In this document: piece by piece, positions 4,418 to 22,591 of the stretch | Layout of the letters: each line of letters starts with the position of its first letter | Position numbering within the stretch: the stretch's first letter is position 1 | Assembly (NCBI GenBank): GCA_000004985.1 | Contig: GG738951.1 | Origin: Naegleria gruberi | Taxonomy: Eukaryota | DNA: 24,047 nucleotides | Direction: 5' to 3' (one strand) | Program-made: the position numbers and the translations under genes | The notes under the pieces: generated by a model | The model's input: only the letters and a program-made list of their open reading frames with translations | Databases searched by the model: none | What the model was told of the DNA's origin: nothing

Positions 4418-4651
4418 TATAATAGATTTAATATTACAGTGAGTATATTATTATAAAAGATATATATTATAGAAGTGTTTAGCCTTTTTTTTTTGTATTT
4501 TTAAGAGACACTAAGATTTACAGTATATAAATGAAAGACAACACATCAGAGAGAGTGAAGATGTTGATGATAATGATGAACTTTTTGACCCTTAATGAAG
4601 TTGAGAGGTAAAATCTCTATCTCTCTCTATTGATGTCTACAATATGATTGA

Positions 4652-4800
4652 GAGAGATGGAACCATACATGAAATATTACATCTCTTGTTTTTCAGAATG
4701 TTGACCATGTAAATAATACAAGACTTGAATTATTGTATAATATCTAAATATTCATTGACACAATTCAAAAAGGCATGGAACATGGAACAATTTTGTAAAG
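4652..4800 (+). repeat. Direct repeat, copy 1 (modules A and B split by a 52-54 nt insertion)
   Basis: Module A, TACATGAAATATTaCATCTCT..TTTTCA..AAT..TTGAC (about 4665-4705), matches about 7454-7495. Module B at 4760-4800 (ACAATTCAAAAAGGCATGGAACATGGAACAATTTTGTAAAG) matches 7496-7536 at 37 of 41 positions by hand alignment, and the last 24 nt are identical. The copy-1-specific insert (4706-4759) itself ends in ATTGAC, like module A. Confidence 0.8.
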
Positions 4801-4919
4801 TTATCTCTTAATCATTGTGTAAACTCCTCCTTCCAATCAAAATAGTTCCAGTTCAATGATTGTTGATTCTGACATGCCACTTTAAAAAGTGTGAATATTC
4901 TAAACTCACATTAAAAAAA

Positions 4920-6437
4920 ATGAGAGCATTCACATCCACAATCCGCCACCACACCCTGAAGAAGAATCACACAACAAGCTTTTTATTTTCAAAAAGAATT
5001 GGAAAAGAATCAATTAGAACATTTTCTAAAAATGTAATCCTAAACAATCAAATTCCGCCACCAACAGAAGAACAAGTAAGACACTTATATGACTTGGTAA
5101 TGAATAAAATTGTTTGGGAAAAGGCAAATAGAAATATAGTTCATGAGGATTTGAAAATGGAAAATCAATTTTCGAAACTTGATTTGAAACTTTTGATTAC
5201 TAATACCTCCCTATTTGCTGATCTATTTTCTTTCACACAAGATTTATTGACATTTGATCGATATAATCTTGTTCAGAATAGGGAAGAATTGAAAGAGGTG
5301 AATATTTCAAGTTTGATTCAATATTCTCAATTTTTTGCACATTTACTGAAAGGTATTGTTCAAGGATGGTATTCATTTAAAGATTTGAAACCATACTTTC
5401 CAAATCCACTTACAGGAGTTCAAATTGATGGTAAAGATTTGGTTGAAAATGATCCAGTGACCTATTTATATTGTTTATGGGAATTGAATTCAAAGGATTT
5501 TGTAAATGAACAAGTTCCATTTACAAGAGAGAAATTGATTTGTTTAATTCCAATCATTTTCTCTGCACTAGACCAAAATGATCCTGTAACTGCTTTACAA
5601 TACATGAAATTATTTGTAAAGCATTATCCTAAAGTTAAACAATTATACATAACATCAGCTCAAGGTAGTGATGAATTTTCATTGGAATCAAGTTGGACAA
5701 AAGTTTTAGGTAAAGTTTACACTGAGAATGAATTTGATTCGTGTTTAGATTGGGAAACTGAACTACCTGTAAACCTAAATGGAATGTACAATATTTTTAA
5801 AACACATGCAGACCACCAAACAATTGAAGATCAATGGAAAGTACTCTCAGTTATTGAAGAGGAAGAAAAAAAAACACCATCCAATCCTTATATTTTAGTA
5901 TTTAAGGGATATTTTGGAGATAGTGCTAAAGATTTTATTTATGGATCCAAATGTTTAGAACTATTAGCCAAATCACCTGCCAAAGTTGAAATATTGAAAA
6001 GAACTGAGAAATTTAATGTATTCAAGAATGAACAACCATCCAACCTTGAAATAATCAAAGATTTCAAATTCTTTCCTCTATTATTTTGGAAATGTGTAGT
6101 CTTATCAAAACAGGAAGATCCACGAATGGCAGTAGAATTATTCAAACAAGTGGAATATTATTCAAAAAAACAAACTCATTTTCCATTATTACTCTTGAAA
6201 ATGACTTTAGAATTCAGATTTGCCAATGATGAAGAGGTATTACGTATTTTCCAATTGATGGAACCATTCGAATCACAAACTAATCTTGTCCTTCTAGTCA
6301 GTGCAACAAACTATGCTTGCATGTCAATGAAAAATCTAGGATTAGAACAGGAAATTGTTCCAATGTTGGAAAAATTTATTGAGAAATATGGCAAGGAAAG
6401 TAATTTTACAACTATTCTCAATTACTATAAAAAGTAA
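4920..6437 (+). CDS. Hypothetical protein, 505 aa; unassigned, possibly organelle-targeted
   Basis: This is the first in-frame ATG (4920), preceded by an A8 run; the track start at 4860 is TTG. It is an uninterrupted 505-codon ORF with no Asn/Gln homopolymers. The N-terminus MRAFTSTIRHHTLKKNHTTSFLFSKRIGK is basic and hydroxylated with no acidic residue for about 29 aa, which resembles a mitochondrial presequence (inference only). I could not recognise a family. Confidence 0.55.
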   Translation: MRAFTSTIRHHTLKKNHTTSFLFSKRIGKESIRTFSKNVILNNQIPPPTEEQVRHLYDLVMNKIVWEKANRNIVHEDLKMENQFSKLDLKLLITNTSLFADLFSFTQDLLTFDRYNLVQNREELKEVNISSLIQYSQFFAHLLKGIVQGWYSFKDLKPYFPNPLTGVQIDGKDLVENDPVTYLYCLWELNSKDFVNEQVPFTREKLICLIPIIFSALDQNDPVTALQYMKLFVKHYPKVKQLYITSAQGSDEFSLESSWTKVLGKVYTENEFDSCLDWETELPVNLNGMYNIFKTHADHQTIEDQWKVLSVIEEEEKKTPSNPYILVFKGYFGDSAKDFIYGSKCLELLAKSPAKVEILKRTEKFNVFKNEQPSNLEIIKDFKFFPLLFWKCVVLSKQEDPRMAVELFKQVEYYSKKQTHFPLLLLKMTLEFRFANDEEVLRIFQLMEPFESQTNLVLLVSATNYACMSMKNLGLEQEIVPMLEKFIEKYGKESNFTTILNYYKK

Positions 6438-7340
6438 AATAGTTCTATTTTCATTAAAAGTTACTACTAGCTCTCAACATTGCACATATTGTTTTTCAAA
6501 ATTGCAACAGTTCAGCCCAAGAGGTACTTTCCTGTATGCTGAAAATTCAGCTTCAATTGCCAGTTGTGTTGATGAGGAACAACTAACTATTGTAACTTGG
6601 TTATTAAGGATAAAGAAGGAAATGAAATTTTGAGAGAACGTGCAACTTTGGATGAATTGAGTGAAGAAACATTCTCTGTTTCATTCTTAATTAAGAGTGA
6701 GCTATATACTGATTATAATATATCAGTAGAATTGGAGGAGAATTCATACTCTTTAGATAATAGTGAACATGTTGATCCATCTCCAATTCAAAAACTTAAC
6801 TTACAAATCAGATGCATTGAAAAGTTCCAAATAGATGCAGCAAGTACAATCTCAAAGAGTTCAAATGAAGAATCTCCATGTTAATGGTAAAATTGTTGAA
6901 GAGAAATTGGAATTCATTGCAAATGAAGTAAAAAAGATTCGTGATAGAACTATTTGAAAAATCATTTCAGGTACCTCACGTGAAAATATCAATGCAGTTC
7001 TTCCATTGTACATTGGTGAGGAACATTGGAGGGTTGCTCGTAAAAAGATGAAGCCAGTTTTAGGATTTGTCGCTACTTTGGATGTAATGGGTTATGCTTT
7101 CGAGCAATTCAAAACCATTCCATTCTTTGTTCTCTTCAAGCTTCTCCAAGAATGCTCTGAACAAGAATCAATGACTGAATTCCAATCTTTGAGATTAAAT
7201 TTGGTTCTAGCCAATTTTTAGAAACTGATGATGTGTATTGTGCAGCTGGTATGTTATTTGGACAAAAGAGAGGTAATGGTGAGTTTATTTATTTCACTCG
7301 TGCTCTATGTACCCCTGGTGTCAAGTTCTTTAAAAGTTGA
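6438..7340 (+). pseudogene. Coding-like sequence broken across three frames; either a decayed gene or unresolved exons
   Basis: Successive open stretches lie in different frames and none starts with ATG; the track starts at 6355, 6597 and 7006 are all TTG. The pieces are ..HCTYCFSKLQQFSPRGTFLYAENSASIASCVDEEQLTIV.. / ..DKEGNEILRERATLDELSEETFSVSF...IRCIEKFQIDAAS.. / ..NGKIVEEKLEFIANEVKKIRDRTI*KIISGTSRENINAVLPLYIGEEHWRVARKKMKPVLGFVATLDVMGYAFEQFKTIPF.. / ETDDVYCAAGMLFGQKRGNGEFIYFTRALCTPGVKFFKS* (7221-7340). Amino-acid composition looks protein-like rather than random. Confidence 0.3.
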
Positions 7341-7440
7341 AAATGTTATTGAGAGGTGAATTCCTTATAGAGTTGTTGAGTTGTTGGATTCTGCGCTTGG
7401 AGAATTGAATTCAATCCGGTGATGTTGTGGAAATTACTAA

Positions 7441-7536
7441 GAGAGCCTATCTGTACATGAAATATTGCATCTCTCTGGCTTTTCAATATATTGACAAAGT
7501 TCAAAAAGTCAAGGAACATGGAACAATTTTGTAAAG
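7441..7536 (+). repeat. Direct repeat, copy 2 (modules A and B contiguous)
   Basis: See copy 1. This copy ends 48 nt upstream of the ankyrin gene ATG (7585). Sequence becomes strongly AT-rich immediately after 7536. Confidence 0.8.
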
Positions 7537-7584
7537 AATATAATCACTAAAATATTAATAAAATAATAATAATCAATTTAAAAA

Positions 7585-8955: not shown

Positions 8956-9065
8956 TATTTAATAAAAATGTAGAGTGTTTGTTTATATTTTTAATAAAAT
9001 TAACATATCTTTTTATTCTGAATAATTTCCCTTTATTTTTATTCCATCTTTTTGAAAATATATAT

Positions 9066-9428
9066 TTATAATAAATGATATGGACTTTGAAATGATATTA
9101 ATTGTTCATTATAATATCCATATTCTAAATTAATAATTAATTGTTCCAATTCTTTTACATTTCCAATAAATTTAATTTTATTATTAAAAGTATTTAAATT
9201 TAAAGTTAAATATTTAATATTATTTAATTTAAATAATTTAAATGCTGTATCAATAAATATATTACATTCTAATTCTTTTAAATTTTTAAAATTACTATTA
9301 TTAGTAATTAATTCAATAATAGAATCATTATCATAATTATTAATAAATTTAATAGATTTTACATTTAAAGATGTTTTACAAATTGATTTTAAATTTAAAT
9401 AAATTGATAATAAATTAATTTCTAAATC
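9066..9428 (-). pseudogene. LRR-like open frame (120 codons, no ATG) in frame with, and 51 nt downstream of, the last sense codon of the 9477-10682 ORF
   Basis: The minus-strand translation is DLEINLLSIYLNLKSICKTSLNVKSIKFINNYDNDSIIELITNNSNFKNLKELECNIFIDTAFKLFKLNNIKYLTLNLNTFNNKIKFIGNVKELEQLIINLEYGYYNEQLISFQSPYHLL*. It has the same L/N/I-rich repeat style as the upstream gene. It is absent from the ORF track because it lacks any start codon. Confidence 0.35.
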
Positions 9429-9476
9429 TCATCATTTATATTATTTTTATAAAAATTTAACTTTAAATTAAAATTA

Positions 9477-10682
9477 TCACTTCTTGATTTTAATTTTAGT
9501 TTCTAAATTTGAACAATTAATGAAAGATGTATTTTTAATAACATTATTTAAATCAACATTAAATTTAATTGATAAATAATTTAATTTTTTTAAATATTTT
9601 AAAAAGGAAATTGTTGTAACATTTTCAATTTTTAAATATTTTATATTTTCTAAAATAATATTATTATCATTTATATTAAAATTATTAATATAAATACTTT
9701 CTAAATTAAATATTACTGAATTTATATTATTTAATTGTAAATTACCCATATAAAAATGTTTTAAATTTTTTAAAGTTCCATTTAATAAATATTCCCAAAT
9801 TAATTCATTTTCTAATTTATATACAGCTATATTTATTTTTAATTTTAAAATATTTTGTAAATAAATTGATTCAAATAAATATTTTAATATATTTGGATTT
9901 TTAATAGAAATTTCTAAACTTTGTAAATTTTTAAATTTTTCTAACATTTCACATAATTGTTCATCAATTATTTTAGTATATTTAAAATGTTTTAAATTAT
10001 TTGGAATTAAACTTGTTATTATATTACAATCTATTAATTCTAAATCTTCTAAATATGGAAAATTAATATTTGTAAATATTGAATTATAACTTTCAATTGA
10101 TAAATTTTTTAATTTTAATTTTCTTAAATTACAAGTTATTAAATTATTAGGAATTTCAAATTTTAAATTTTTACTTGAATCAAATATTAATAAATTATTT
10201 AATTTGTTAAAATCTATAATTATATTATTATTTATATTGTCATTATTTTTAAATTTTAAAATTTCAAGTTGATTCCAATTTGTATTTAAAATTAAAGATT
10301 CAACATTTTCAAAATAATTTGAAATTTCGATAATTTTAATTAATTTTAAACATGATGGTTGATTTATAATTAAATTAATTAAATAATTAGATATTTTAAT
10401 ATTTTTAGATAAAATTAAATGAATTGAAGAAAATAAATTAGATTTCATTATATTAATAAATTCATCACTTAATTTAGTTCCATATTCGGATAATGATATT
10501 TGTTCATCATTTAATTTTGAATGTTTAAATATTTGATAATCATTACATTTTAATATAAATTTATATTCTTCAAATTTAAATCTAATTATTTTACATGTGT
10601 TACATAAATTAATCCATTCTTTTATTCCGTTAGTAAAGGGTATTATTTGATGGTAGAATATTTCTGATGGCAAGTTTTGCAT
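9477..10682 (-). CDS. F-box-like / leucine-rich-repeat protein, 401 aa
   Basis: The ATG at 10682 is preceded by an A-run on the minus strand. The N-terminus LPSEIFYHQIIPFTNGIKEWINLCNTCKII fits the loose F-box pattern (LPxEI..I....L..L..VCK.). The rest is LxxLxL-type repeats (FPYLEDLELIDCNII, FKNLQSLEISI, LKNLKHFYMGNLQL, IKYLKIENV, LKKLNYLSIKF). Confidence 0.8.
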   Translation of the reverse strand: MQNLPSEIFYHQIIPFTNGIKEWINLCNTCKIIRFKFEEYKFILKCNDYQIFKHSKLNDEQISLSEYGTKLSDEFINIMKSNLFSSIHLILSKNIKISNYLINLIINQPSCLKLIKIIEISNYFENVESLILNTNWNQLEILKFKNNDNINNNIIIDFNKLNNLLIFDSSKNLKFEIPNNLITCNLRKLKLKNLSIESYNSIFTNINFPYLEDLELIDCNIITSLIPNNLKHFKYTKIIDEQLCEMLEKFKNLQSLEISIKNPNILKYLFESIYLQNILKLKINIAVYKLENELIWEYLLNGTLKNLKHFYMGNLQLNNINSVIFNLESIYINNFNINDNNIILENIKYLKIENVTTISFLKYLKKLNYLSIKFNVDLNNVIKNTSFINCSNLETKIKIKK

Positions 10683-10716
10683 TTTTTTTAAAGTTGATCA
10701 AAATTCAATCACATAA

Positions 10717-10788
10717 AACTTCTCTCGAAATTGAGTGATAATCAGAATTGAATAGCTGAATTGAATAGCTTCCCTTTAGAGAGAAGTT
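10717..10788. repeat. 10-bp perfect inverted repeat enclosing a perfect 13-bp tandem duplication
   Basis: AACTTCTCTC (10717-10726) is the exact reverse complement of GAGAGAAGTT (10779-10788). Between them, GAATTGAATAGCT occurs twice back to back (10745-10757 and 10758-10770). The structure lies 35-106 nt upstream of the minus-strand ATG at 10682. Confidence 0.8.
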
Positions 10789-11862
10789 ACATCATAAACA
10801 AAAATCGTCCAAAATTAATGCCAGTTATTGTGTGAAATAAAGGTAAGTGATTGGATGGGCAGTAGTATTAACTTATTATCAAGTTTAACATGGACGTCCT
10901 TTTCCTTCATTGAACTCAAGATCTTTCCAATCCTCGAAATCTGCCAAAGTTAATTGATCTTCTCCAGAAGTCTGTAAATGCAGTGACAGTCTAACACAGT
11001 GTTCTCTCTCGTTTGTTGTTAAAGTATACTCATGAAAACATGGTTGTGTAAGTGTATATCTATTGAATTCCGAAATGCGAACAGTGAGGGATATATTAGT
11101 GAATGTATGCAAACATCAACAGTGAACGATTATCCTTGTTCTATTATTCCAATTTAATAATGCTGTTTGAGATCCACTCTTGTTTGTATTCTAAGACTAT
11201 AGTAAATGTGTGATCATCACTATACCTGCCGCTTAACTCCTATGTTCCGTTTTCTAGATGTTAAAGAGTATTCCTATGCTCAAAGTTGACTATCTCCGAA
11301 AAAATAACTTAACTGTAAGCACATTACAATATTTAGGGGATTGTAAAGTCACTACCACTCAGCAGACTGTTTGCGATAGAACTAGCAAACTGCTTCCTAA
11401 GTTATTGTTTGTGTGTTTATACCAACTTGGCAATTGGAGGAGATCAGTTACAATAGAGAAGGAATGGAGATTGAATTTGGAGAATTGGCAGTTACTTCAT
11501 GAATAATTCTGAGTAAATTTACTTAGAAAAAATGTAAGTTGCCTTCCTAGATCTCAATCACTAGCAACATACAATGAATCCAACAAAAAAGCAAATTTAG
11601 AATAAAATGTGTATTTTGAGTAGTCGAACAAAGTTCCAGACCGAAATGTCAGCTGCTTCTAAGATACATGATCTTTCAATGAGAATAACCTAAGAGTGGA
11701 GTACTTGGGTAATAGACAGTGTAATAGTTGGTTTTTAGTTGGCTTTGTTCCCTCTAAACCCCATCCACAACCCTAATTTAATTTTCCCCAACTTCGAACG
11801 ATTTGGTTGGTTCGTTGGTTGGTAGTAGGTTGATTGTTGGGTAAAGGAATGAAATTGGTGGG

Positions 11863-11950
11863 TAACTATTCAATAAATATTCAGTAACCATTCAGTTATT
11901 ATATGGTAAACATTCAGTGACTATTCGGTGAACATTTAGTTTCTATGCGG
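11863..11950. repeat. Degenerate 11-bp tandem repeat, 8 units
   Basis: Read in 11-nt steps from 11863 the units are: TAACTATTCAA / TAAATATTCAG / TAACCATTCAG / TTATTATATGG / TAAACATTCAG / TGACTATTCGG / TGAACATTTAG / TTTCTATGCGG. The consensus is roughly T-R-A-M-Y-A-T-T-C-R-G. Confidence 0.85.
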
Positions 11951-12031
11951 CTTTTAGTGTGTTGGTTCATTTGACTGAAAGTTTCCCTTAATTTACAATT
12001 TTCATAATTTGAGTAAAACTGATTAATTTAT

Positions 12032-12501
12032 TTACAATTGTTGTGCTTCTTCTGAGTCTGATTGACCATTATCTGAATAAAGATCTGCACCATCTGATTC
12101 CATATCAAGCAAATTAATTGCGTCTGCTGAAGGTTGTGTTGCTCTTGTCAGGTTTTTTGATCCAATCTTTAACAAGTGTTAAAAAAACAACTTGTTCATC
12201 TTCTGCAACATAGCTCTGCAATGAAGAGAATTGACCATTGTTGGCTCTGACATGTTCTCTTGTTGGTGAAGAGGTAGAAGGTTGAATTTCTGTTGTTGAA
12301 TTGAGGATTGAACTCCTTCTATATATTAGAAACTTCGACATTGGAATTCTTCTTTCTTTTTGGCTTCTCTTTTTTCTTTAATTCTATTAGACTCTTTCTT
12401 TTAAAAGAACTCCACAGATTGCTGAATATCTTACTGACATTAACAATAGCTCTAATTAATTGTTGGAAAATAATTAATAAATAATTAAGGATAAACTTCA
12501 C
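12032..12501 (-). pseudogene. Three overlapping minus-strand open frames in different phases (basic K-rich, S/T-rich, acidic tail); a frameshifted or unresolved gene
   Basis: 12319-12501 gives ..LKKKEKPKRKKNSNVEV.. . 12114-12341 gives ..STTEIQPSTSSPTREHVRANNGQFSSLQSYVAEDEQVVFLTLVKDWIKKPDK.. . 12032-12178 gives HLLKIGSKNLTRATQPSADAINLLDMESDGADLYSDNGQSDSEEAQQL*. The frame changes coincide with T7 and A6 homopolymer runs (about 12150-12190). Confidence 0.25.
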
Positions 12502-12517
12502 TTAGAATACTTTGCAC

Positions 12518-12891
12518 TTATTTATATGTATCCGTTGACAATCCATTAACATGTTTTCTGCGCAATGTTTCACCAAAAGTTAATTGCAGACAATCTTTAC
12601 ATGAACTCATGGCAGTATCATTTTGGGGAATCCCTTTTCGCTTACAGTAAATTCGAATACATTGCATAACTTCTCTTTTTAATCTATATAAAATCAAATA
12701 ACTAACTAACAACTTGCTTACTTACGCTCGTTGAGTATCCTTCCATCCCACTGCAGCCTTGGGATAACAGTCAGCCAACTTTTCATATGTGGCTTCTGGT
12801 AAACATGTTATGGTTAATTTAGTCTTCTTCTTTGTTATTAGAATAATTTATGTTGAATAAATGGTGTTAAACTACTTACTTTTACGCACAT
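12518..12891 (-). CDS. Candidate small 3-exon gene (about 93 aa), unassigned; the 5' end is uncertain
   Basis: The hand-built model is exon a 12880-12891 (ATG TGC GTA AAA|GTAAGT), exon b 12726-12829, and exon c 12518-12683. The introns are 50 nt (GTAAGT..AAAG) and 42 nt (GTAAGT..TATAG), and both are in phase. The product is MCVK-KKTKLTITCLPEATYEKLADCYPKAAVGWKDTQR-A-LKREVMQCIRIYCKRKGIPQNDTAMSSCKDCLQLTFGETLRRKHVNGLSTDTYK*. A very canonical ATGCCAG|GTAAGT lies further upstream at 12975-12963, but I could not join it in frame. Confidence 0.3.
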
Positions 12892-13031
12892 GATGGTGAT
12901 GATGCTGAAATGAAGTAAAATTGGCAGTTGATGGAAAAGTTACAAGGTTGATGTAGAATTACTTACCTGGCATTTATTGTGTTTTTTTGATTCGAATTTT
13001 CAGTCGAAAGCCAGTTTTTAGACGAAAAAAA

Positions 13032-13565
13032 ATGTCTTTACAAAATAACAAGGAACAAGGTATCTATTTTGAAAGACGCTGTGATTCTTGCAAGAAATCT
13101 TTACACACAGTATTTTACCAACCAATTTCAAGTGCAAAATTCAAGATTCAAATTAAATGTAACTGTGAAAACTCTGAGTGTAAAAATTTTACTAAGGAAA
13201 AACTTGGATGTTGTTTATGTGATTATAGTTGTGTCAAATCTGAAACGTTGTTGAAACATATTACAAAAGAACATTCCATCAAGTTTCCAAAAGTGTGTTG
13301 TGATAAACATTACACCACAATGGAGGAATACGTCGATCATATCAATTTTAAACATCAAACCAACACAAAGAGTGCAATAGAACATCAACCGTTAAAGAGA
13401 TTATGTTTATCTAAACCAGAAAAACCAGTAAAGCTCAGCTCCTCTGCAAATACATCTTTACAGCATGTCATTACTCCTCAAAATGATACATTGGAGTGCA
13501 AGAATGTCTTTCATTTGATCAAATTCAAACCAGATGTAAATATTTCAAAACTCAACAACCAATAA
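13032..13565 (+). CDS. C2H2 zinc-finger protein, 177 aa
   Basis: The ATG at 13032 follows an A8-9 run; the track start at 12987 is TTG. There is a classical C-X2-C-X12-H-X4-H finger at 13209-13274 (CCLCDYSCVKSETLLKHITKEH), followed by a degenerate second finger (CCDKHYTTMEEYVDHINFKH). Additional Cys pairs lie N-terminally (CDSCKK, CNCENSECK). An adjacent open frame (13496-13753, GTG start in the track) may be a frameshifted or spliced continuation. Confidence 0.55.
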   Translation: MSLQNNKEQGIYFERRCDSCKKSLHTVFYQPISSAKFKIQIKCNCENSECKNFTKEKLGCCLCDYSCVKSETLLKHITKEHSIKFPKVCCDKHYTTMEEYVDHINFKHQTNTKSAIEHQPLKRLCLSKPEKPVKLSSSANTSLQHVITPQNDTLECKNVFHLIKFKPDVNISKLNNQ

Positions 13566-13879
13566 TTGATGAAAATGATACTGAACAGGACCAATATGTA
13601 TACTATGGTGTTGTAAATTCAAACATTCATGCAACAACTGGCTATGTTGCACTAAATCAAATAATTGGTAAATGTTTGATTCATAGTATTGCAGGCAAAG
13701 AAATGTTCAACCAATACTCGTTTTTCATGAATTTCCATAAAGTTAAATTTTAAAAATAGAACATTTATTAATTTTTGGCTTTGGAGGTGTATTCAACAGC
13801 GTCCAGCTACCACTACCACCAACTACATCCACTCTTAGGATCAAAGAACAGAACTGAATCGTTTAATTCAATAATTTAT

Positions 13880-16861
13880 TTAAAGTTTTGATTGTTGTTT
13901 GTTGGAATCATTGTTAATAATTTCATGAGCAGCAATTCTTCCATAAACAACACATTCCAATAAACTATTACCAGCCAATCTATTTAAACCATGTAATCCA
14001 CCTGATGCTTCACCTGCAGTATATAAACCTTGAATTGGTTCAACAGTATTATCATTTGCAATTCTTCTTAAAACTCTTGCCTTTTCATCAAATAATAAAC
14101 CACCATGTGTATAGTGAATGGAAGGTGTAATTCTTGAAATATAAATGGTATCATTTAAATTAAATAGAGTTGGGAATAAATTCTTTCCAAAATCATCTAC
14201 AATTGAATTATTTAATTGATATTGATTATAAAAATGATTATAATTTTCAATAGTATTAATTAATTGTTGTAAATTTAAATGTTGTAATGATTCTTGATGA
14301 GCATGTTGTAAATTATTAAATTTCTTAATAAAACCTTTACCAATATAAAAAGATAATAAAGATTCACTAAAAGATTTAGCAACATGATCATTCATAATCA
14401 TATAAGCAGTAGTATGTCCATTTTCAATTTCAGATTTACAATTTTTAAATATCATATCAGAAACATAATCTCTTCTACCTAATTCATTACAAAATCTATT
14501 ACCATTCTCATTAACTATAATACCACCATAAGCACGTAATGCTTCAGCTGCTAAAAATACTGTCATACTTTTAGGATTTAATGGATCAATAAATCCAGTT
14601 GGATGTACTTGAATAGATTCCATATGTATTAATGAGGCTCCTAATTCTTTAACTGCCATTCTAATACCTTCTCCATTAGCAAATTTACCATTAGTAGTTG
14701 GTAATTTTGATAATTGTGGTGCATATTCTTTTAAATATCCTTCTCTATCTGCTGCATATCCACCTGTTGTTAATACAACTGATGATACTTTTAATTCTTT
14801 AACTTGTTGTTCTTTTAATTCTTTTAATTGTTCTGATTGTGATTCTTTTGATTGTTCTTTTGATTCTTGTTCAAGAGTAATATATTTAATACCTGTTACA
14901 ATTGTATTATTATTTTCATCAATTAAAGTTAAAAAACCAATCATTTTAGTACTTGTCATTACAGTAACTCTATCATTTAAATTATTCTTAATATAATTTA
15001 ATAATTTAAAAGTAATTTCAGCACCAACATTCATTGCACGTCCAACTTTAGGTGGAGCAGAACGATGTGTACGTGCCATTGAATGACCACCACATTGTGT
15101 TACTAATTCCATTCCAATACCATGATTTTCTAAAAATTCAATTGCACTTGTTGATTCTTTAACAAGTGTTGAAATTAATTTAGGATTACCTGCTTGTTTA
15201 CCTGATTTAGTAGTATCAGATATAAATAAATCAACTGTATCAGGAATTGATAATCTTTCCTGTGCTTTAGTTAATACTCCATTAATACCTGATGTTGCTT
15301 TAGCACTATTACCACCTGTACGTTCTTCTTTTTCAATTAAATAAACATAACCTCCTAATTCTGCAATTTCAATAGCTGCTGATAATCCTGCAAGTCCACC
15401 TCCAATCACTGCTACTTTTATTGGTGATGATGATGATTGATTAGTTGTAGATGTAGATTCAGTAGTGGTGGTGGATTGTGTAGTAGATTGTTCAACAGTT
15501 GGAGTGTCCATACTTGGTTGATTGGTAGTAGTGGTATCGGATTGTTTTTGATCACTTGTTGGAGTAGTAGTGATAGGTGTAGTAACCTCTTCTTGTTGTT
15601 GTTTAGTAGTAGTAGTAGGAGTGGTGCTAGTAGGAGTAGTTGTTGTTGGTTCTTCTTGTTGTTGTTGTTCAACTTTAGCCTTTGATTCTACTTGTTTGGT
15701 TTCAGCAGTAACTGTAGGGGTTGTTGTTGGAGTACTTGGAGTAGCAGCAGTAGTAGTAGTAGTTTCAGCTTGAGGTGTTGTTGTTGTAGTTGATGTGCTT
15801 GGTTGAGTGGTGGAAGTAGTGGTGGTTGTTGGGTTCAAATTTGGAATTTGTTTTTTATGAATCTTATTTTGGATAAATTCTAAAGCTTGTTCAAATTCAC
15901 TATTTAAATTTGTATAAATTTTAATCCTATCACTATTATTTAATAAAATATTATTTAAATTATTATTATTACTATCAATAATATTATCATCATAATTATA
16001 AAAATAATTAAATTCTTCAAATAATGTAATTGTATTTTGATTAATAGAATTATGAATACTATTATTATCATTTTCATTTAAATTATTTAAATTACAATGT
16101 TTTAATAATGGTAATAAAATAGATCTAGTAGGTAATATATTTGTAATTAATTTATATAATTTTTTAAATAAAATAGATGATGTCTTTTTACCTAATATTT
16201 TATTATAAATAATTGAAATTAATTTATGAATAGATTTATAATCTTTAATTAATTCAATTATTTTATCAATTGTAATCTTTTCATTAATAATTGAATTATT
16301 AATTGGTAATATTGGTGAAAATAAAACTATATTTTCAATATTTTCAATATTATTATTTAATTGTTGTAATTGTTTATAATATAATAAAGTATAAAAAGCA
16401 CCTAATTGATGACCAATTAAACTATATGAATTTAATTTTAATTCATTAACAATAGATTGAATAGAATTCATAATTAAATAATATTGTTCTTTAGAACATG
16501 AACAAGTATTTAAAGTATTATTGTTAGTATTTAAAAAAGATTGACCAATACCAGGTCTATCAAATTTAATTAATCTAATAGAATGTTTTTTAGCTAATTC
16601 ATCTTCATTTAAATGTCCATATGAAAGTGATCCAGGTGTAGGATGTAATTGAATAACTGCATGTCCATTCAAATCACCCAATTCAATATAGGCTATTTTA
16701 GATCCATCCTTTTCAATATATTTTAATTTATTACTAATATTACTATTTAATAATGATTCTGTATGTTTAGGATTTTTATATAAATTAACATTACTTGAAT
16801 ACAATAATGATAAGACTATTGCAATCAAGGCTGTTGTGAGAATAAGTAATTTACTCAACAT
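13880..16861 (-). CDS. Fusion protein, 993 aa: N-terminal signal-anchor, alpha/beta-hydrolase-like module, Thr/Pro/Gln-rich linker, and soluble FAD-dependent fumarate reductase (FRD1/OSM1 / flavocytochrome c flavin-domain type)
   Basis: This is a single uninterrupted ORF whose ATG is preceded by A9. The hydrophobic N-terminus is MLSKLLILTTALIAIVLSLLYSS. The hydrolase-fold blocks are VIQLHPTPGS, FDRPGIGQS and SLIGHQLGAF. The linker spans about 15425-15840. The reductase blocks are VAVIGGGLAGLSAAIE (dinucleotide fold), TGGNSAKATSGINGV, DTTKSG, CGGHSMARTHR, IQVHPTGFIDP, AAEALRAYGGIIVNENGNRFCNELGRRDYV, and GLYTAGEASGGLHGLNRLAGNSLLECVVYGR. Confidence 0.9.
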   Translation of the reverse strand: MLSKLLILTTALIAIVLSLLYSSNVNLYKNPKHTESLLNSNISNKLKYIEKDGSKIAYIELGDLNGHAVIQLHPTPGSLSYGHLNEDELAKKHSIRLIKFDRPGIGQSFLNTNNNTLNTCSCSKEQYYLIMNSIQSIVNELKLNSYSLIGHQLGAFYTLLYYKQLQQLNNNIENIENIVLFSPILPINNSIINEKITIDKIIELIKDYKSIHKLISIIYNKILGKKTSSILFKKLYKLITNILPTRSILLPLLKHCNLNNLNENDNNSIHNSINQNTITLFEEFNYFYNYDDNIIDSNNNNLNNILLNNSDRIKIYTNLNSEFEQALEFIQNKIHKKQIPNLNPTTTTTSTTQPSTSTTTTTPQAETTTTTAATPSTPTTTPTVTAETKQVESKAKVEQQQQEEPTTTTPTSTTPTTTTKQQQEEVTTPITTTPTSDQKQSDTTTTNQPSMDTPTVEQSTTQSTTTTESTSTTNQSSSSPIKVAVIGGGLAGLSAAIEIAELGGYVYLIEKEERTGGNSAKATSGINGVLTKAQERLSIPDTVDLFISDTTKSGKQAGNPKLISTLVKESTSAIEFLENHGIGMELVTQCGGHSMARTHRSAPPKVGRAMNVGAEITFKLLNYIKNNLNDRVTVMTSTKMIGFLTLIDENNNTIVTGIKYITLEQESKEQSKESQSEQLKELKEQQVKELKVSSVVLTTGGYAADREGYLKEYAPQLSKLPTTNGKFANGEGIRMAVKELGASLIHMESIQVHPTGFIDPLNPKSMTVFLAAEALRAYGGIIVNENGNRFCNELGRRDYVSDMIFKNCKSEIENGHTTAYMIMNDHVAKSFSESLLSFYIGKGFIKKFNNLQHAHQESLQHLNLQQLINTIENYNHFYNQYQLNNSIVDDFGKNLFPTLFNLNDTIYISRITPSIHYTHGGLLFDEKARVLRRIANDNTVEPIQGLYTAGEASGGLHGLNRLAGNSLLECVVYGRIAAHEIINNDSNKQQSKL

Positions 16862-17152
16862 TTTTTTTTCACTTTTTATTGTTGATCAAATCCCTTTGTT
16901 GCTGCTTGTTGTATAAGTGATAGTAAGTGAAAGGGTACTATTTGAGACATTTGAACATTTTCGTAAGGTTTAAAAATAGTCAATAGATCGATGTTTGTTG
17001 TTGTTGTATTCAATCTTCATAATATAATTGTACTCAATTTTACTTTATTTTTCTCTCTTTTAAACTTCTCAAATAATCAATGTCATATAAAAATCAATAT
17101 AATAAAAATCAATATAATTCTTAAATAATATATATATTATATAAAAAAAAAT

Positions 17153-18016
17153 CTATTGTCTTGGTAAAATAGAATCTTTTAAATCTTGATTTTGTAACAT
17201 TGACCATTCTTGATCTGAAAAGATGAATAAATGAGAAGGTAAAGGTTTACCATTTGGTAATTTAACATTGGGTATTCTTAATTCATCAAAGAAAGGATGA
17301 GCTAAAGCATCCATTGGAGTAATTCTACGTTTTGGATCATATTGTAATAATTTTGTAATTAAATCAACACTATTATTCATTTCAATGAAAGGATCAATTT
17401 GTGAACCAGAATTTGAACCATTATTAGCTTGATAATTACGTTGTAAAAATTGAAATCTATCTGCAAAAACTTGATCCCATGGATTTGGTTTAACTTGTGG
17501 AAATTTAAATTCAGTATAATTCTTATTCATTGCTAAAATATCTTGTTTAGAAGGAGCACCTAATACTTTAATAATTTCAACTAATTGATCAACTGAACTT
17601 TCACCTTGAAATAAAGGAGTACCTAACATTAATTCACCCATAACACATCCACATGACCATACATCAACTGAACAAGTATATTTTGTTGATTGAAATATTA
17701 ATTCAGGTGCTCTATAATATCTTGAACAAATATATGATACGTTAGGTTCTCCTTCTTTTAATTGTTTTGCATTTCCAAAATCACATAATTTTAAAATTCC
17801 ACTCACTGGATCTATTAATAAATTTTGTGGTTTTATATCACGATGACAAATACCAAGTGAATGTATATATATCACTGAACGTAATAATTGAAATACAAAT
17901 AATTTAACATAAATACTTGGTACATAGGAATTATGTTTAGCATAATTCATACAAAATCTATAAACTGTATCAGGTACATATTCTAATACTAAATTTAAAT
18001 ATACTTCTTCTGGATC
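17153..18016 (-). CDS. GSK-3 family (CMGC) protein kinase, exon 2
   Basis: An AG acceptor lies at 18018-18017. The translation is [21 protein letters not shown]...[94 protein letters not shown]. It is near-collinear with animal GSK3 through subdomains V-XI. Confidence 0.9.
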
Positions 18017-18094
18017 CTATTATTTTAAATTGTTTTAAATTGTTTTTTAAATATTATTATAGATATAAATATTATTATTATAAATATTATTATT

Positions 18095-18148
18095 ATTAAA
18101 AATATTAAAATTATTAAAAATATTAAAATTATTAAAAATATTATAAAT
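18095..18148. repeat. 18-bp AT-only tandem repeat (about 3 units) inside the GSK-3 intron
   Basis: ATTAAAAATATTAAAATT occurs at 18095-18112 and 18113-18130, with a diverged third unit at 18131-18148. It lies within the 144-nt intron 18017-18160. Confidence 0.75.
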
Positions 18149-18160
18149 ATAAAAACTTAC

Positions 18161-18787
18161 TCTATCACCTCTTGAATAAAAATAATTTTTCAATTCAACA
18201 ACATTTGGATGTGATAATGTTTTCATTACTTGTAATTCTCTATTTTTAAATCTCTTATCTTGAAGTACTTTCTTAATAGCTACTATATCTCCTGTTTCTT
18301 GTACTTTAGCTAGAAATACAACACCAAAACTACCATTACCAATCACTTTAACAGCACTATAAGAAACTACTTTGCCTTGTCGTGTTGGTGGTGATGTTGT
18401 TGAGGTTGCTGCTGCTGTAGTAGTAGTAGTAGTAGTAGATGAATTATTATTTGGTTGTTGTTGTTGTTGAATAGATGAATTGACTAGGCTAGTGGAAGGT
18501 TGTTGTTTTGAATTGATGGATTTGGTTTTTCTAGTTGGTGATTCATTTCCAGGTTGATTAGTTATATTATTTGTATTATTAGTGGTTGTAGTAGTACTTG
18601 TTGTTGTAGATTTTGATGAAGATTGATAATTATTATAGGATCTATTGGTTTTATCATTATTTCCAATTTGAAGATAATTAAAATTATTAATTAAATTATC
18701 CATATTATTATTGTTAGTAGTATTTGTATTGGAATTTGAATTGTTATTATTATTATTATTATTAATGAAGGAATTATTATTGTACAT
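18161..18787 (-). CDS. GSK-3 family protein kinase, exon 1 (low-complexity N-terminus plus kinase subdomains I-IV)
   Basis: The ATG is at 18787. About 150 aa of Asn/Thr/Gln/Ser-rich low complexity come first. Then follows [70 protein letters not shown], with a GTAAGT donor at 18160 in phase 0. The exon is 627 nt, or 209 codons. Confidence 0.85.
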
Positions 18788-19546
18788 TGTTGATATAATA
18801 CAATAATAATATTGCTGAACACAGCGCTGTTAGAATGTTTTGATTCACAATGAATGACACACCTAGAAAGAGAGAGTGTGTGTGCTGTTTCTAATATATA
18901 TATATTGATTATATATTCAATGAAAGAGAGAGAGGTTATTGTTGTTGAGATGTTTTTTCGCAGTTATTATTAATTGAAGAATCGTAATTTTTTTCTTCTA
19001 ATTAAAAAAATAATGAAAACGTCATCACCCACATGCACAATGAATGAAATATTGAAAATAATATGAAATTTATTATCTCTTTTATGATTGACTTGCCAAT
19101 TGAAATAATATGTCTCTAATGACTCAATCTCTATTATACCTCTTTACAATATATGTAATTATTATACATTGAAAAGTAAATAGTATAACGTATTATTATA
19201 TGTGTACTATTAAAGTGAGGACAAATTGAAATTATCATCATGAATGAGGGAGGGTTGTAAATTTGTAACTACATTCTCAACCAATAAACACCTGTAGTGA
19301 TTCTTTTATAAACAACTATTTAGGAGCATAATACACATTCCTTTTATGTACATTAAATGATCAATTATATTACAAGTTCATTAAGAACTGTTTGGCGCCA
19401 AATATTTTACAGTAATAATTTCCATTTTACTCACTATTGTCAATTTGATTTCAACAATATTAGCCAACATAATCAATGTACTACTATAATATTCAACAAT
19501 ATATTCAATATATATAATTATTATAATTATTATTATTATTAATAAA

Positions 19547-22083: not shown

Positions 22084-22142
22084 TTTTATTATTGTGAAAA
22101 TTGTTAAATGTCATTAATTATTATCATGTAATTAGTACTTCG

Positions 22143-22591
22143 NNNNNNNNNNNNNNNNNNNNNNNNNNNNNNNNNNNNNNNNNNNNNNNNNNNNNNNNNN
22201 NNNNNNNNNNNNNNNNNNNNNNNNNNNNNNNNNNNNNNNNNNNNNNNNNNNNNNNNNNNNNNNNNNNNNNNNNNNNNNNNNNNNNNNNNNNNNNNNNNNN
22301 NNNNNNNNNNNNNNNNNNNNNNNNNNNNNNNNNNNNNNNNNNNNNNNNNNNNNNNNNNNNNNNNNNNNNNNNNNNNNNNNNNNNNNNNNNNNNNNNNNNN
22401 NNNNNNNNNNNNNNNNNNNNNNNNNNNNNNNNNNNNNNNNNNNNNNNNNNNNNNNNNNNNNNNNNNNNNNNNNNNNNNNNNNNNNNNNNNNNNNNNNNNN
22501 NNNNNNNNNNNNNNNNNNNNNNNNNNNNNNNNNNNNNNNNNNNNNNNNNNNNNNNNNNNNNNNNNNNNNNNNNNNNNNNNNNNNNNNNNNN
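22143..22591. other. Assembly gap (run of N)
   Basis: Uninterrupted n characters from 22143 to 22591. Confidence 1.

What the first reader, a model, noticed from the sequence alone, without database searches (positions are those of the whole stretch)
10690..13870. Second less-AT-rich 3.2-kb segment with a divergent gene pair, short GTAAGT introns and frame-broken ORFs
Seen directly: hand counts give 23 G+C for the 60-nt line 11701-11760 and 31 for 12721-12780, well above adjacent AT-rich flanks. There are no Asn/Gln tracts.

Contents:
- a 76-codon open frame ending at 10885 (..CFHEYTLTTNEREHCVRLSLHLQTSGEDQLTLADFEDWKDLEFNEGKGRPC*)
- a repeat-rich non-coding core
- three phase-shifted minus ORFs (12032-12501)
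- a candidate 3-exon small gene with 42- and 50-nt GTAAGT introns (12518-12891)
- a strongly canonical ATGCCAG|GTAAGT at 12975-12963 that diverges from a C2H2 zinc-finger ORF starting at 13032

The segment is about the same size as the 4440-7540 segment, but I see no convincing sequence similarity between the two beyond an 11-mer (TTGGAGAATTG at about 7397 and about 11483). A match that short is expected by chance.

Inference: this is a foreign, mobile or fast-evolving lineage-specific insertion between the F-box/LRR gene and the fumarate-reductase gene.
Basis: partly seen in the sequence, partly recalled or inferred. Interest (0 to 1): 0.5.

Follow-up and report, generated by a model that had tools for sequence, protein, structure and literature searches.

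The report
Gutted Naegleria transposon-like remnant between genes
The right-hand part of this 3.2-kb less-AT-rich block is a wrecked copy of a repeated, probably mobile gene of the amoeba Naegleria gruberi that has lost about three quarters of its coding sequence, and the rest is broken small genes; that is ordinary, except that the block sits among extremely AT-rich genes that do not look like typical Naegleria DNA.

Summary
Positions 10683-13879 are 32.7% G+C, against 13-27% in flanking coding DNA and about 12% in the AT-rich spacer 8956-9476. The listed ORFs, GTAAGT sites and frame breaks are there.

The window is a whole 24,047-bp scaffold filed under Naegleria gruberi NEG-M. The "C2H2 ORF" (13032-13565) is annotated as EFC36052.1. 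With the next ORF (to 13753) it is a doubly deleted copy of a gene for a protein of about 880 aa. Codons 1-156, 259-298 and 837-880 remain.

Copies at least 90% identical lie on five other N. gruberi scaffolds, three of them 340-530 kb. Distant, non-syntenic homologues occur in Willaertia magna and N. lovaniensis.

The full-length protein has conserved zinc-finger Cys/His positions and a D...D...CxxC...HxxxH...E pattern like EnSpm/Transib-type transposases. That pattern is only suggestive: no Pfam or PDB match, and the structure models were unusable. The whole putative catalytic core is missing here.

An independent metagenome contig (98.5% identical) reproduces both deletions and the junction with the fumarate-reductase gene, so that junction is real.

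"Mobile" is supported for the right third. "Foreign" is ambiguous, because the block matches the N. gruberi genome mean (35%) and the flanks are the outliers.

The parts
10683..13879 (.). The whole less-AT-rich block. It fills the space between the start codon of the F-box/LRR-like gene (10682, minus strand) and the stop codon of the fumarate-reductase gene (13880, minus strand).
   Evidence: 32.7% G+C against 13-27% in flanking CDS. Boundaries seen in 40-nt windows. No terminal inverted repeat between its ends: best local score 19, null 19.9 +/- 2.5.
13032..13565 (+). 177-aa ORF (EFC36052.1). It consists of codons 1-156 of the repeated ~880-aa zinc-finger/transposase-like protein plus a 21-aa out-of-frame tail.
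   Evidence: 100% identical to an N. gruberi 'predicted protein'. tblastn of the reconstructed full-length protein places aa 1-156 at 13032-13499 with 99.4% identity. Cys/His positions conserved with the W. magna homologue: C17, C20, C45, C50, C60, C63, H76, H81, C89, C90, H103, H108.
13499..13618 (+). Second retained piece, aa 259-298 of the full-length protein, read in another frame. Deletion junction 1 lies at about 13499/13500. It removes aa 157-258 plus 1 nt and so shifts the frame.
   Evidence: tblastn 97.5% identity; alignment A1; the sequence of P0003 carries the missing ~100 aa.
13619..13753 (+). Third retained piece: the C-terminal 44 codons (aa 837-880) plus the stop codon. Deletion junction 2 lies at 13618|13619. 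It removes aa 299-836, which is the whole putative catalytic core.
   Evidence: tblastn and alignment to P0009/P0015, whose C-terminus is ...SNIHVTTGYVALNQIIGKCLIHNIAGKEMFNQYSFFMNFHKVKF.
12518..12891 (-). Candidate 3-exon, 93-aa gene (exons 12891-12880, 12829-12726, 12683-12518). It is divergent from the zinc-finger ORF.
   Evidence: The reading frame closes with 50-nt and 42-nt GTAAGT..AG introns. No Pfam or PDB match. The sequence is not in the protein collection. In the related strain L001 a 245-bp deletion (12673-12917) removes exons 1-2.
12961..12973 (-). Orphan ATGCCAG|GTAAGT start-plus-donor, 58 nt from the ATG of the plus-strand ORF.
   Evidence: Joining it to the acceptor 62 nt downstream gives a stop after 9 codons.
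12032..12501 (-). Three overlapping ORFs in three frames (60, 75 and 47 aa). They look like one frame-broken coding region with an acidic C-terminus.
   Evidence: No Pfam match to a frame-corrected translation.
11862..11950 (.). Degenerate 11/22-nt tandem array in the non-coding core.
   Evidence: Tandem Repeats Finder, 62-77% matches, 3-6 copies.
10885..11112 (-). 75-codon ORF ending ...FNEGKGRPC*. Possibly the last exon of a dead gene.
   Evidence: No Pfam match above threshold. Not in the protein collection.
10717..10788 (.). 14-nt inverted repeat enclosing a 13-nt x2 direct repeat, next to the left boundary.
   Evidence: (I25). Function unknown.

Best explanation
The block is degenerate repeat-derived DNA of Naegleria type.

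Shown:
- Its right third (13032-13753) is a dead, non-autonomous copy of a multicopy element whose intact gene encodes a protein of about 880 aa.
- Two internal deletions, of about 307 nt and about 1614 nt, removed 73% of that gene.
- What is left is a 177-aa ORF (EFC36052.1) that retains only the N-terminal Cys/His-rich part.
- The copy, with both deletions, was already at this locus before two strains that differ by about 1.5% diverged.

Inferred:
- The intact protein has an N-terminal zinc-finger DNA-binding region followed by a DDE-type cut-and-paste transposase core of the EnSpm/CACTA-Mirage-Chapaev-Transib kind.
- The window copy therefore cannot move by itself.
- The left 2.3 kb (a frame-broken ORF, a 93-aa three-exon model, a 75-codon terminal ORF and short tandem repeats) is further decayed cargo or neighbouring sequence that arrived with the element or accumulated beside it.
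For: Identity of the window:
- It is a whole scaffold filed under N. gruberi NEG-M, and the ORF is EFC36052.1.

Copy number and full-length form:
- The 90% cluster of this ORF includes EFC35823.1 on a 10.2-kb scaffold. That protein carries about 100 aa missing from the window copy.
- An exhaustive phmmer search found EFC46396.1 (645 aa, on a 530-kb scaffold). It continues that protein at 100% identity and ends with the same C-terminus as window ORF 13496-13753.
- The 90% cluster of EFC46396.1 has four members, on scaffolds of 530, 362, 342 and 7.7 kb.
- tblastn maps aa 1-156, 259-298 and 832-880 of the 880-aa reconstruction onto 13032-13750 at 88-99% identity (alignment).

Distribution:
- Distant homologues exist only in Willaertia magna (40% identity) and N. 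lovaniensis (32%).
- The W. magna locus shares nothing else with the window and is itself interrupted.

Transposase-like features of the full-length protein:
- D359 (conserved in both distant homologues), D447, C462-x2-C465, H710-x3-H714 and E735.
- This order is the one PMC12730594 gives for EnSpm/Mirage/Chapaev/Transib/Plavaka/RAG1.
- CMC-EnSpm is the largest classified DNA-transposon class in N. lovaniensis.

Independent confirmation:
- Metagenome contig L001 is 98.5% identical over window 12918-14306. It has both deletions and the same junction with the fumarate-reductase gene.

Composition:
- 32.7% G+C for the block against an N. gruberi mean of 35%.
Against: Against the transposase class:
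- No Pfam family matches the full-length protein even at E <= 10.
- No PDB sequence match.
- AlphaFold2 models were unusable, with pLDDT 31 and 36.
- The motif pattern arises in 10% of shuffles of the whole Cys/His-rich protein, and in 1.7% of shuffles of aa 300-880.
- So the transposase class rests on weak evidence.

Against an intact or single element:
- No terminal inverted repeats or target-site duplication were found at the block's ends.

Alternative reading of the copy number:
- A recently expanded host gene family could also give several near-identical copies.
Confidence: 0.72

Rival explanations
1. The scaffold is not N. gruberi chromosomal DNA. It belongs to a co-sequenced, unsequenced and extremely AT-rich amoeba, and the block reached that genome by horizontal transfer of a Naegleria transposon. 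On this reading the first reader's "foreign insertion" is literally right.
For: - Flank genes have third-position G+C (GC3) of 6.4%; spacers between AT-rich genes range from about 12% to 25% G+C. ORFs of the two less-AT-rich segments have GC3 of 24%, and the N. gruberi genome is 35% G+C.
- Most AT-rich ORFs of the scaffold are absent from the protein collection, so they were apparently not annotated as such ORFs.
- The kinase gene's only close relatives are two metagenome sequences, at 100% and 84% identity.
- The 90% cluster of the full-length protein contains no sequence from the metagenome that carries this locus.
Against: - It needs a very recent cross-species transfer: the copy is 97-100% identical in protein to N. 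gruberi copies.
- It also needs a second, unrelated Naegleria-like block (4418-7584) on the same scaffold.
- Extreme AT-richness does occur in the Naegleria family: the W. magna contig is 6-30% G+C.
- Flanks and blocks share strong CpG depletion, with observed/expected ratios of 0.20-0.46.
- ContScout flagged mainly bacterial proteins in this assembly (37 of the 60 it removed). It has only a single 'other eukaryote' class, so it says nothing about another amoeba.
Confidence: 0.2
2. The block is an assembly chimera: Naegleria repeat reads wrongly joined to AT-rich contaminant reads.
For: - The scaffold is small and carries two runs of N.
- Repeats often cause misjoins.
Against: - An independent Illumina metagenome contig (L001) from another strain spans 12278-14306. 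That includes the block/fumarate-reductase junction and both internal deletions, at 98.5-99% identity.
- No N run touches the block.
Confidence: 0.04
3. The block is a functional lineage-specific locus: a divergent pair of a small 93-aa protein and a 177-aa zinc-finger protein. The latter would be a domesticated or repressor-type truncated transposase, comparable to the KP repressor of P elements.
For: - The 177-aa ORF is intact in two strains and keeps the conserved Cys/His positions.
- The 93-aa model has clean GT..AG introns.
- The two start codons lie within about 140 nt of each other.
Against: - Between strains the 177-aa ORF has 2 non-synonymous and 2 synonymous differences, so there is no sign of constraint.
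- The tail of the ORF is an out-of-frame accident of a deletion.
- The other strain lacks exons 1-2 of the 93-aa model.
- Neither product has homologues beyond copies of the repeat.
Confidence: 0.1
4. The block is a fragment of an integrated virus (giant virus, virophage or Polinton-like element).
For: It carries short orphan ORFs on both strands, and its composition differs from the flanks.
Against: - No relative of the full-length protein in 2.9 million viral contigs.
- The block contains spliceosomal-type GTAAGT introns.
- No viral hallmark domains in Pfam.
Confidence: 0.02

Closest known systems
CMCT clade of DDE cut-and-paste transposons (EnSpm/CACTA, Mirage, Chapaev, Transib/RAG1, Plavaka, ESTA, Lanisha), as defined in PMC12730594
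   Same: [quoted passage not shown]
- From memory, this resembles RAG1 D600/D708/C727,C730/H937,H942/E962.
- It has an N-terminal zinc-finger region, many truncated copies, and internal-deletion derivatives.
   Different: - No detectable sequence similarity to Pfam Transposase_21 or any other family.
- No CA..TG termini, TIRs or 2-5-bp target-site duplication could be identified.
- The window copy lacks the whole core.
Internally deleted non-autonomous derivatives of DNA transposons, such as P-element KP or maize dSpm/Ds (from general knowledge)
   Same: - Two internal deletions relative to full-length copies.
- The N-terminal DNA-binding part is retained as a short ORF.
- The copy persists at one locus in two strains.
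   Different: - Such derivatives normally keep both termini, which could not be shown here.
- No evidence of repressor activity.
Intron-containing DNA transposons of AT-rich amoebae, such as Dictyostelium Tdd-4 (from memory; not tested)
   Same: A G+C-richer mobile element with short GT-AG introns embedded in very AT-rich intergenic DNA.
   Different: - Tdd-4 encodes an integrase-like HHCC/DDE protein and has 145-bp TIRs. Neither is seen here.
- The repeat family here is found only in Naegleria and Willaertia.

Membership tests
CMCT-clade DDE transposase (EnSpm/Mirage/Chapaev/Transib-like) | [quoted passage not shown] | tested here: inconclusive
   - The pattern is present in the reconstructed 880-aa protein: D359, D447, C462/C465, H710/H714, E735.
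- D359 is conserved in the W. magna and N. lovaniensis homologues. The other positions lie outside the stretch where those partial homologues align, so their conservation cannot be checked.
- The same loose pattern occurs in 10% of shuffles of the whole protein and 1.7% of shuffles of aa 300-880.
- None of these residues is present in the window copy.
CMCT-clade DDE transposase (EnSpm/Mirage/Chapaev/Transib-like) | Detectable sequence or profile similarity to known members | tested here: not met
   - hmmscan of P0009 and P0015 against Pfam-A at E <= 10: no family.
- phmmer against all PDB sequences at E <= 10: none.
CMCT-clade DDE transposase (EnSpm/Mirage/Chapaev/Transib-like) | RNase-H-like catalytic fold | tested here: inconclusive
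   The AlphaFold2 model of P0015 from a 9-sequence alignment had mean pLDDT 31.5, too low for a fold search.
CMCT-clade DDE transposase (EnSpm/Mirage/Chapaev/Transib-like) | 5'-CA..TG-3' termini, terminal inverted repeats and 2-5-bp target-site duplications | tested here: not met
   - No inverted repeat between the ends of the block above the shuffled null.
- The ends of full-length copies could not be read, because N. gruberi DNA beyond this scaffold was not retrievable.
Mobile/repetitive element (general) | Several near-identical copies at unlinked loci, with truncated and deleted variants | tested here: met
   Six annotated proteins at 90% identity or more lie on scaffolds of 530, 362, 342, 24, 10.2 and 7.7 kb. 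Their lengths are 645, 741, 385, 177, 296 and 245 aa.
Mobile/repetitive element (general) | No conserved synteny with homologues in related species | tested here: met
   The W. magna locus L002 shares only the repeat gene with the window. Its neighbours are Kelch, RCC1, myosin and PFK genes.
C2H2 zinc-finger protein | C-x2-4-C-x12-H-x3-5-H spacing, with conserved ligands | tested here: met
   - C60-x2-C63-x12-H76-x4-H81 is invariant between the N. gruberi and W. magna proteins, which are 33% identical.
- A second set, C89/C90...H103-x4-H108, has non-canonical Cys spacing.
C2H2 zinc-finger protein | A Pfam zf-C2H2-type model above the gathering score | tested here: not met
   - Best hits for the window ORF: zf_ZIC at 12.9 bits and zf-C2H2_jaz at 12.9 bits, both below cut-off.
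- W. magna homologue: zf-C2H2_4 at 17 bits against a cut-off of 27.
- The AF2 model had pLDDT 36.5.

The most novel reading that the evidence does not exclude
The Naegleria-type repeat remnant marks something unusual about its host DNA. There are two versions:
(a) N. gruberi has an extremely AT-rich gene-bearing compartment (GC3 about 6%) that was almost lost from the Sanger assembly and annotation.
(b) A Naegleria transposon was very recently transferred into an unsequenced, extremely AT-rich amoeba that was co-sequenced with NEG-M and also occurs in an environmental metagenome.

Either way, the repeated protein would represent a Vahlkampfiid-specific, Pfam-invisible lineage of EnSpm/Transib-like transposases.
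Probability: 0.3. Interest if true: 0.65.

Novelty: new member of a known kind. Interest (0 to 1): 0.38.

Why it matters
- **Annotation.** EFC36052.1 ("predicted protein") is a truncated repeat-gene fragment, not a normal host gene.
- **Origin of the scaffold.** The repeat ties this odd, very AT-rich scaffold to Naegleria. The scaffold carries the protein annotated as the N. gruberi "fumarate reductase". Its origin therefore deserves a check before those genes are used in metabolic or phylogenomic work.
- **Transposon families.** If the motif reading is right, the full-length copies on the large scaffolds define a transposase lineage that current domain libraries miss.
- **The remnant itself.** It is ordinary genomic debris.

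Tried and rejected
**Searches on the block's own products**
- Pfam scans of all block ORFs, of frame-corrected translations and of the spliced 93-aa product found nothing above threshold.
- No tRNA genes. Rfam gave only a sub-threshold snoRNA hit.
- A PDB sequence search with the 93-aa product found nothing meaningful.

**Internal structure**
- Self-comparison for terminal inverted or direct repeats found none above chance.
- Comparison with the first segment (4418-7584) by blastn and tblastx found nothing.

**Structure prediction**
- Models of the full-length protein and of the 177-aa ORF were both too poor to use, with pLDDT 31 and 36. I therefore ran no fold searches.

**Wider sequence collections**
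- JGI metagenome scans with the repeat protein and with the fumarate-reductase C-terminus, the latter to look for a syntenic empty site, found no relatives.
- Viral-contig scans with the repeat protein and with an AT-rich flank ORF found none. One alignment-based scan failed for lack of conserved columns.
- Attempts to fetch other N. gruberi copies as DNA failed: the assembly is not in the contig index.

**Origin of the flanks**
- The homology search with the fumarate-reductase protein was swamped by low-complexity words and was uninformative.
- The kinase search gave no taxonomic signal beyond two metagenome relatives.
- My first assumption, that the flanks were Dictyostelium contamination, has no direct support. 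No close Dictyostelium protein turned up, and the W. magna contig shows the same extreme AT-richness within the Naegleria family.
- My early reading that ContScout had flagged 37 "other eukaryote" proteins in this assembly was wrong. Those 37 are bacterial.
- RIP-like deamination as the cause of the flanks' AT-richness is rejected: differences from the 41%-G+C orthologue are 79 transitions and 103 transversions.


Full report
**1. The observation**

The block is real and sharply bounded.
- In 500-nt windows G+C rises from 11-13% at 9000-10500 to 31-35% across 10750-13750, then falls again.
- The span between the two neighbouring genes, 10683-13879, is 32.7% G+C.
- Flanking coding DNA is lower: 13.4% for the F-box/LRR-like CDS, 26.1% for the fumarate-reductase CDS, 20.1% for the ankyrin CDS.
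- Other spacers in the window range from 11.7% (8956-9476) to 24.6% (18788-19546).
- Fine-scale windows show the change within about 10-20 nt of the start codon at 10682 and of the stop codon at 13880.
- There are no Asn/Gln runs longer than 3.

All listed contents exist:
- the 75-codon minus ORF ending at 10885;
- three overlapping minus ORFs in three frames at 12032-12501;
- three minus-strand GTAAGT sites;
- a 177-aa plus ORF from 13032.

ATGCCAG|GTAAGT lies at 12973-12961, and splicing it onward hits a stop. The "repeat-rich core" amounts to a degenerate 11/22-nt array (11862-11950), a 13-nt doublet and one 14-nt hairpin. The block shares nothing with the first segment.

**2. Where the window comes from**
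- The 177-aa ORF is 100% identical to EFC36052.1, a "predicted protein" of Naegleria gruberi NEG-M, on a contig of exactly 24,047 bp.
- The 993-aa neighbour is EFC36055.1, "fumarate reductase".
- The window is therefore a whole small scaffold of the N. gruberi assembly.
- The published N. gruberi genome mean is 35% G+C (PMC6125883).

**3. What the right third is**

Evidence from other copies:
- The 90% cluster of the ORF contains EFC35823.1 (296 aa, partial, on a 10.2-kb scaffold). It is identical over the first about 156 residues except for one, then continues with about 100 residues that the window lacks. It rejoins the sequence encoded by the window's next ORF in another frame.
- An exhaustive phmmer search with that protein found EFC46396.1 (645 aa, on a 530-kb scaffold). 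It overlaps at 100% identity and ends with the same C-terminal 44 residues as window ORF 13496-13753.
- The 90% cluster of EFC46396.1 has four members, on scaffolds of 530, 362, 342 and 7.7 kb.

Reconstruction:
- Joining the overlapping proteins gives an 880-aa product.
- tblastn places its aa 1-156 at 13032-13499 (99%), aa 259-298 at 13499-13618 (97.5%, shifted frame) and aa 832-880 at 13604-13750 (alignment).
- The window copy has therefore lost aa 157-258 (plus one base, hence the frameshift and the 21-aa nonsense tail) and aa 299-836.
- Only 240 of 880 codons remain.

**4. Distribution and behaviour of the family**
- Beyond the N. gruberi copies, only two relatives appeared among 1.84 billion representative proteins. 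One is in Willaertia magna (40% identity) and one in N. lovaniensis (32%). The remaining weak hits are generic zinc-finger matches.
- The W. magna locus lies on a 417-kb contig among Kelch, RCC1, myosin and PFK genes. It shares nothing else with the window.
- The W. magna copy is itself interrupted: an N-terminal 386-aa ORF and a C-terminal remnant lie about 1.3 kb apart, with unrelated ORFs between them.
- Several near-identical copies, variable truncations and lack of synteny are the behaviour of a mobile element.

**5. What the intact protein probably is**

N-terminal region:
- Cys/His positions are invariant between the N. gruberi and W. magna proteins. They include a canonical C-x2-C-x12-H-x4-H finger.
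- Pfam zinc-finger models stay below threshold.

Putative catalytic region:
- Downstream lie D359 (conserved in both distant homologues), D447, C462-x2-C465, H710-x3-H714 and E735.
- CMC-EnSpm is the largest classified DNA-transposon class in N. lovaniensis.

This is a lead, not proof:
- Pfam and PDB sequence searches found nothing.
- The AlphaFold2 models were unusable.
- The loose motif pattern appears in 10% of shuffles of the whole protein, and in 1.7% of shuffles of aa 300-880.
- No terminal inverted repeats or target duplications were found at the block's ends.

**6. The junction is real and the locus is decaying**
- An ENA metagenome contig (L001, ERZ929261) matches window 12918-14306 at 98.5% and 12278-12672 at 99%.
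- It carries both internal deletions and the same junction with the fumarate-reductase gene. This rules out an assembly chimera on the right side.
- The insertion and the deletions therefore predate the split of the two strains.
- L001 lacks 12673-12917, which removes exons 1-2 of the 93-aa model.
- Within the 177-aa ORF the strains differ by two non-synonymous and two synonymous changes.
- I see no sign of constraint on either member of the "divergent gene pair".

**7. The left 2.3 kb**

I found no homologue for any of its products: Pfam, PDB and exact look-ups. I found no RNA family and no second copy. Whether it belongs to the same element is open.

**8. The surroundings are the real oddity**

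Composition:
- Flank genes have third-position G+C (GC3) of 6.4%. ORFs of the two less-AT-rich segments have 24%.
- Most AT-rich ORFs are absent from the protein collection.

Gene content:
- The flanks carry cellular-type genes: GH47, a two-propeller EML protein, an ankyrin protein, a GSK3-like kinase with an intron, and a fumarate reductase.

Relatives of the kinase gene:
- One is a 100% identical ENA sequence from the same metagenome.
- The other is an 84% identical gene on a JGI metagenome contig of 41% G+C (L004), with the same kinase-then-reductase-like order.
- Of the 182 differences between that orthologue and the window, 101 are G/C in L004 and A/T in the window.
- Every other hit is 66% identical or less, and no named hit among the top 120 is Dictyostelium or Naegleria.

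Context from related genomes:
- The W. magna contig is 6-30% G+C, so extreme AT-richness exists in the Naegleria family.
- Flanks and blocks share strong CpG depletion.

I cannot decide between two readings: an AT-rich, poorly assembled compartment of N. gruberi, or a co-sequenced amoeba that acquired a Naegleria repeat. I judge the first more likely, on parsimony alone.

**9. Verdict**
The right third is a gutted copy of a Naegleria-lineage repeat, probably a DNA transposon. The rest is decayed sequence of unknown origin.
- Measured against the genome it is filed under, the block is not compositionally foreign.
- The remnant itself is ordinary. The mismatch between it and its flanks is the part worth following up.

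Noticed in passing
window 1-24047: The window is a complete 24,047-bp scaffold of the N. gruberi NEG-M assembly. Its cellular-type genes have third-position G+C of 6.4%, and the most AT-rich spacer (8956-9476) is about 12% G+C, far below the published 35% genome mean. Most of these AT-rich ORFs (401, 456, 580, 260 and 103 aa) are not in the protein collection.
   Followed up: partly
L004 (JGI metagenome 3300002220, 2813 bp) against window 16385-18732: L004 is a syntenic orthologous stretch: the GSK3-like kinase followed by a gene similar to the N-terminus of the fumarate-reductase protein. It comes from a relative with 41% G+C. The kinase is 86% identical in protein and 80% in DNA. Differences are strongly biased, with G/C in L004 and A/T in the window.
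   Followed up: partly
window 4418-7584: The first less-AT-rich segment (30.6% G+C) carries a 505-aa ORF (4920-6437) that is annotated as EFC36050.1. It is a singleton at 90% identity, has no Pfam domain, and is not similar to the second block.
   Followed up: partly
L001 1-38 and 262-299; window 12501-12538: The metagenome contig begins with an inverted copy of 38 nt that also occurs in its normal place about 225 nt further on. In L001 this replaces window 12032-12277. It is either a real inversion or duplication in that strain, or an assembly hairpin at the contig end.
   Followed up: no
window 13880-16861 (-): The protein annotated as N. gruberi fumarate reductase is a 993-aa fusion-like product. 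It has a long N-terminal part and Thr/Gln-rich linkers before the FAD-binding reductase domains. Its best scored relatives were only 34-36% identical, but that search was limited by low-complexity words.
   Followed up: partly
window 17951-18147: The open frame of the kinase's second coding block, and its similarity to L004, extend upstream to about 18019-18021. This is beyond the ATG at 17950 that the ORF list uses. The intron is therefore probably about 18022-18147 rather than 17951-18046.
   Followed up: no
L002 10001-12550 (Willaertia magna GCA_041937235.1): The W. magna homologue of the repeat gene is also broken. A 386-aa N-terminal ORF and a C-terminal remnant (12437-12550) are separated by unrelated ORFs, including an aldo-keto-reductase fragment on the other strand.
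   Followed up: partly
window about 1000-2200 and about 22140-22590: Two runs of N (assembly gaps) interrupt the GH47/EML gene region and the spacer before the last gene. Neither touches the block.
   Followed up: no
window flanks, both blocks, L004: Strong CpG depletion (observed/expected 0.20-0.48) with excess TpG and CpA in all of them. This is in line with the CpG depletion reported for Naegleria in PMC12695648. The W. magna contig is less depleted (0.56).
   Followed up: no
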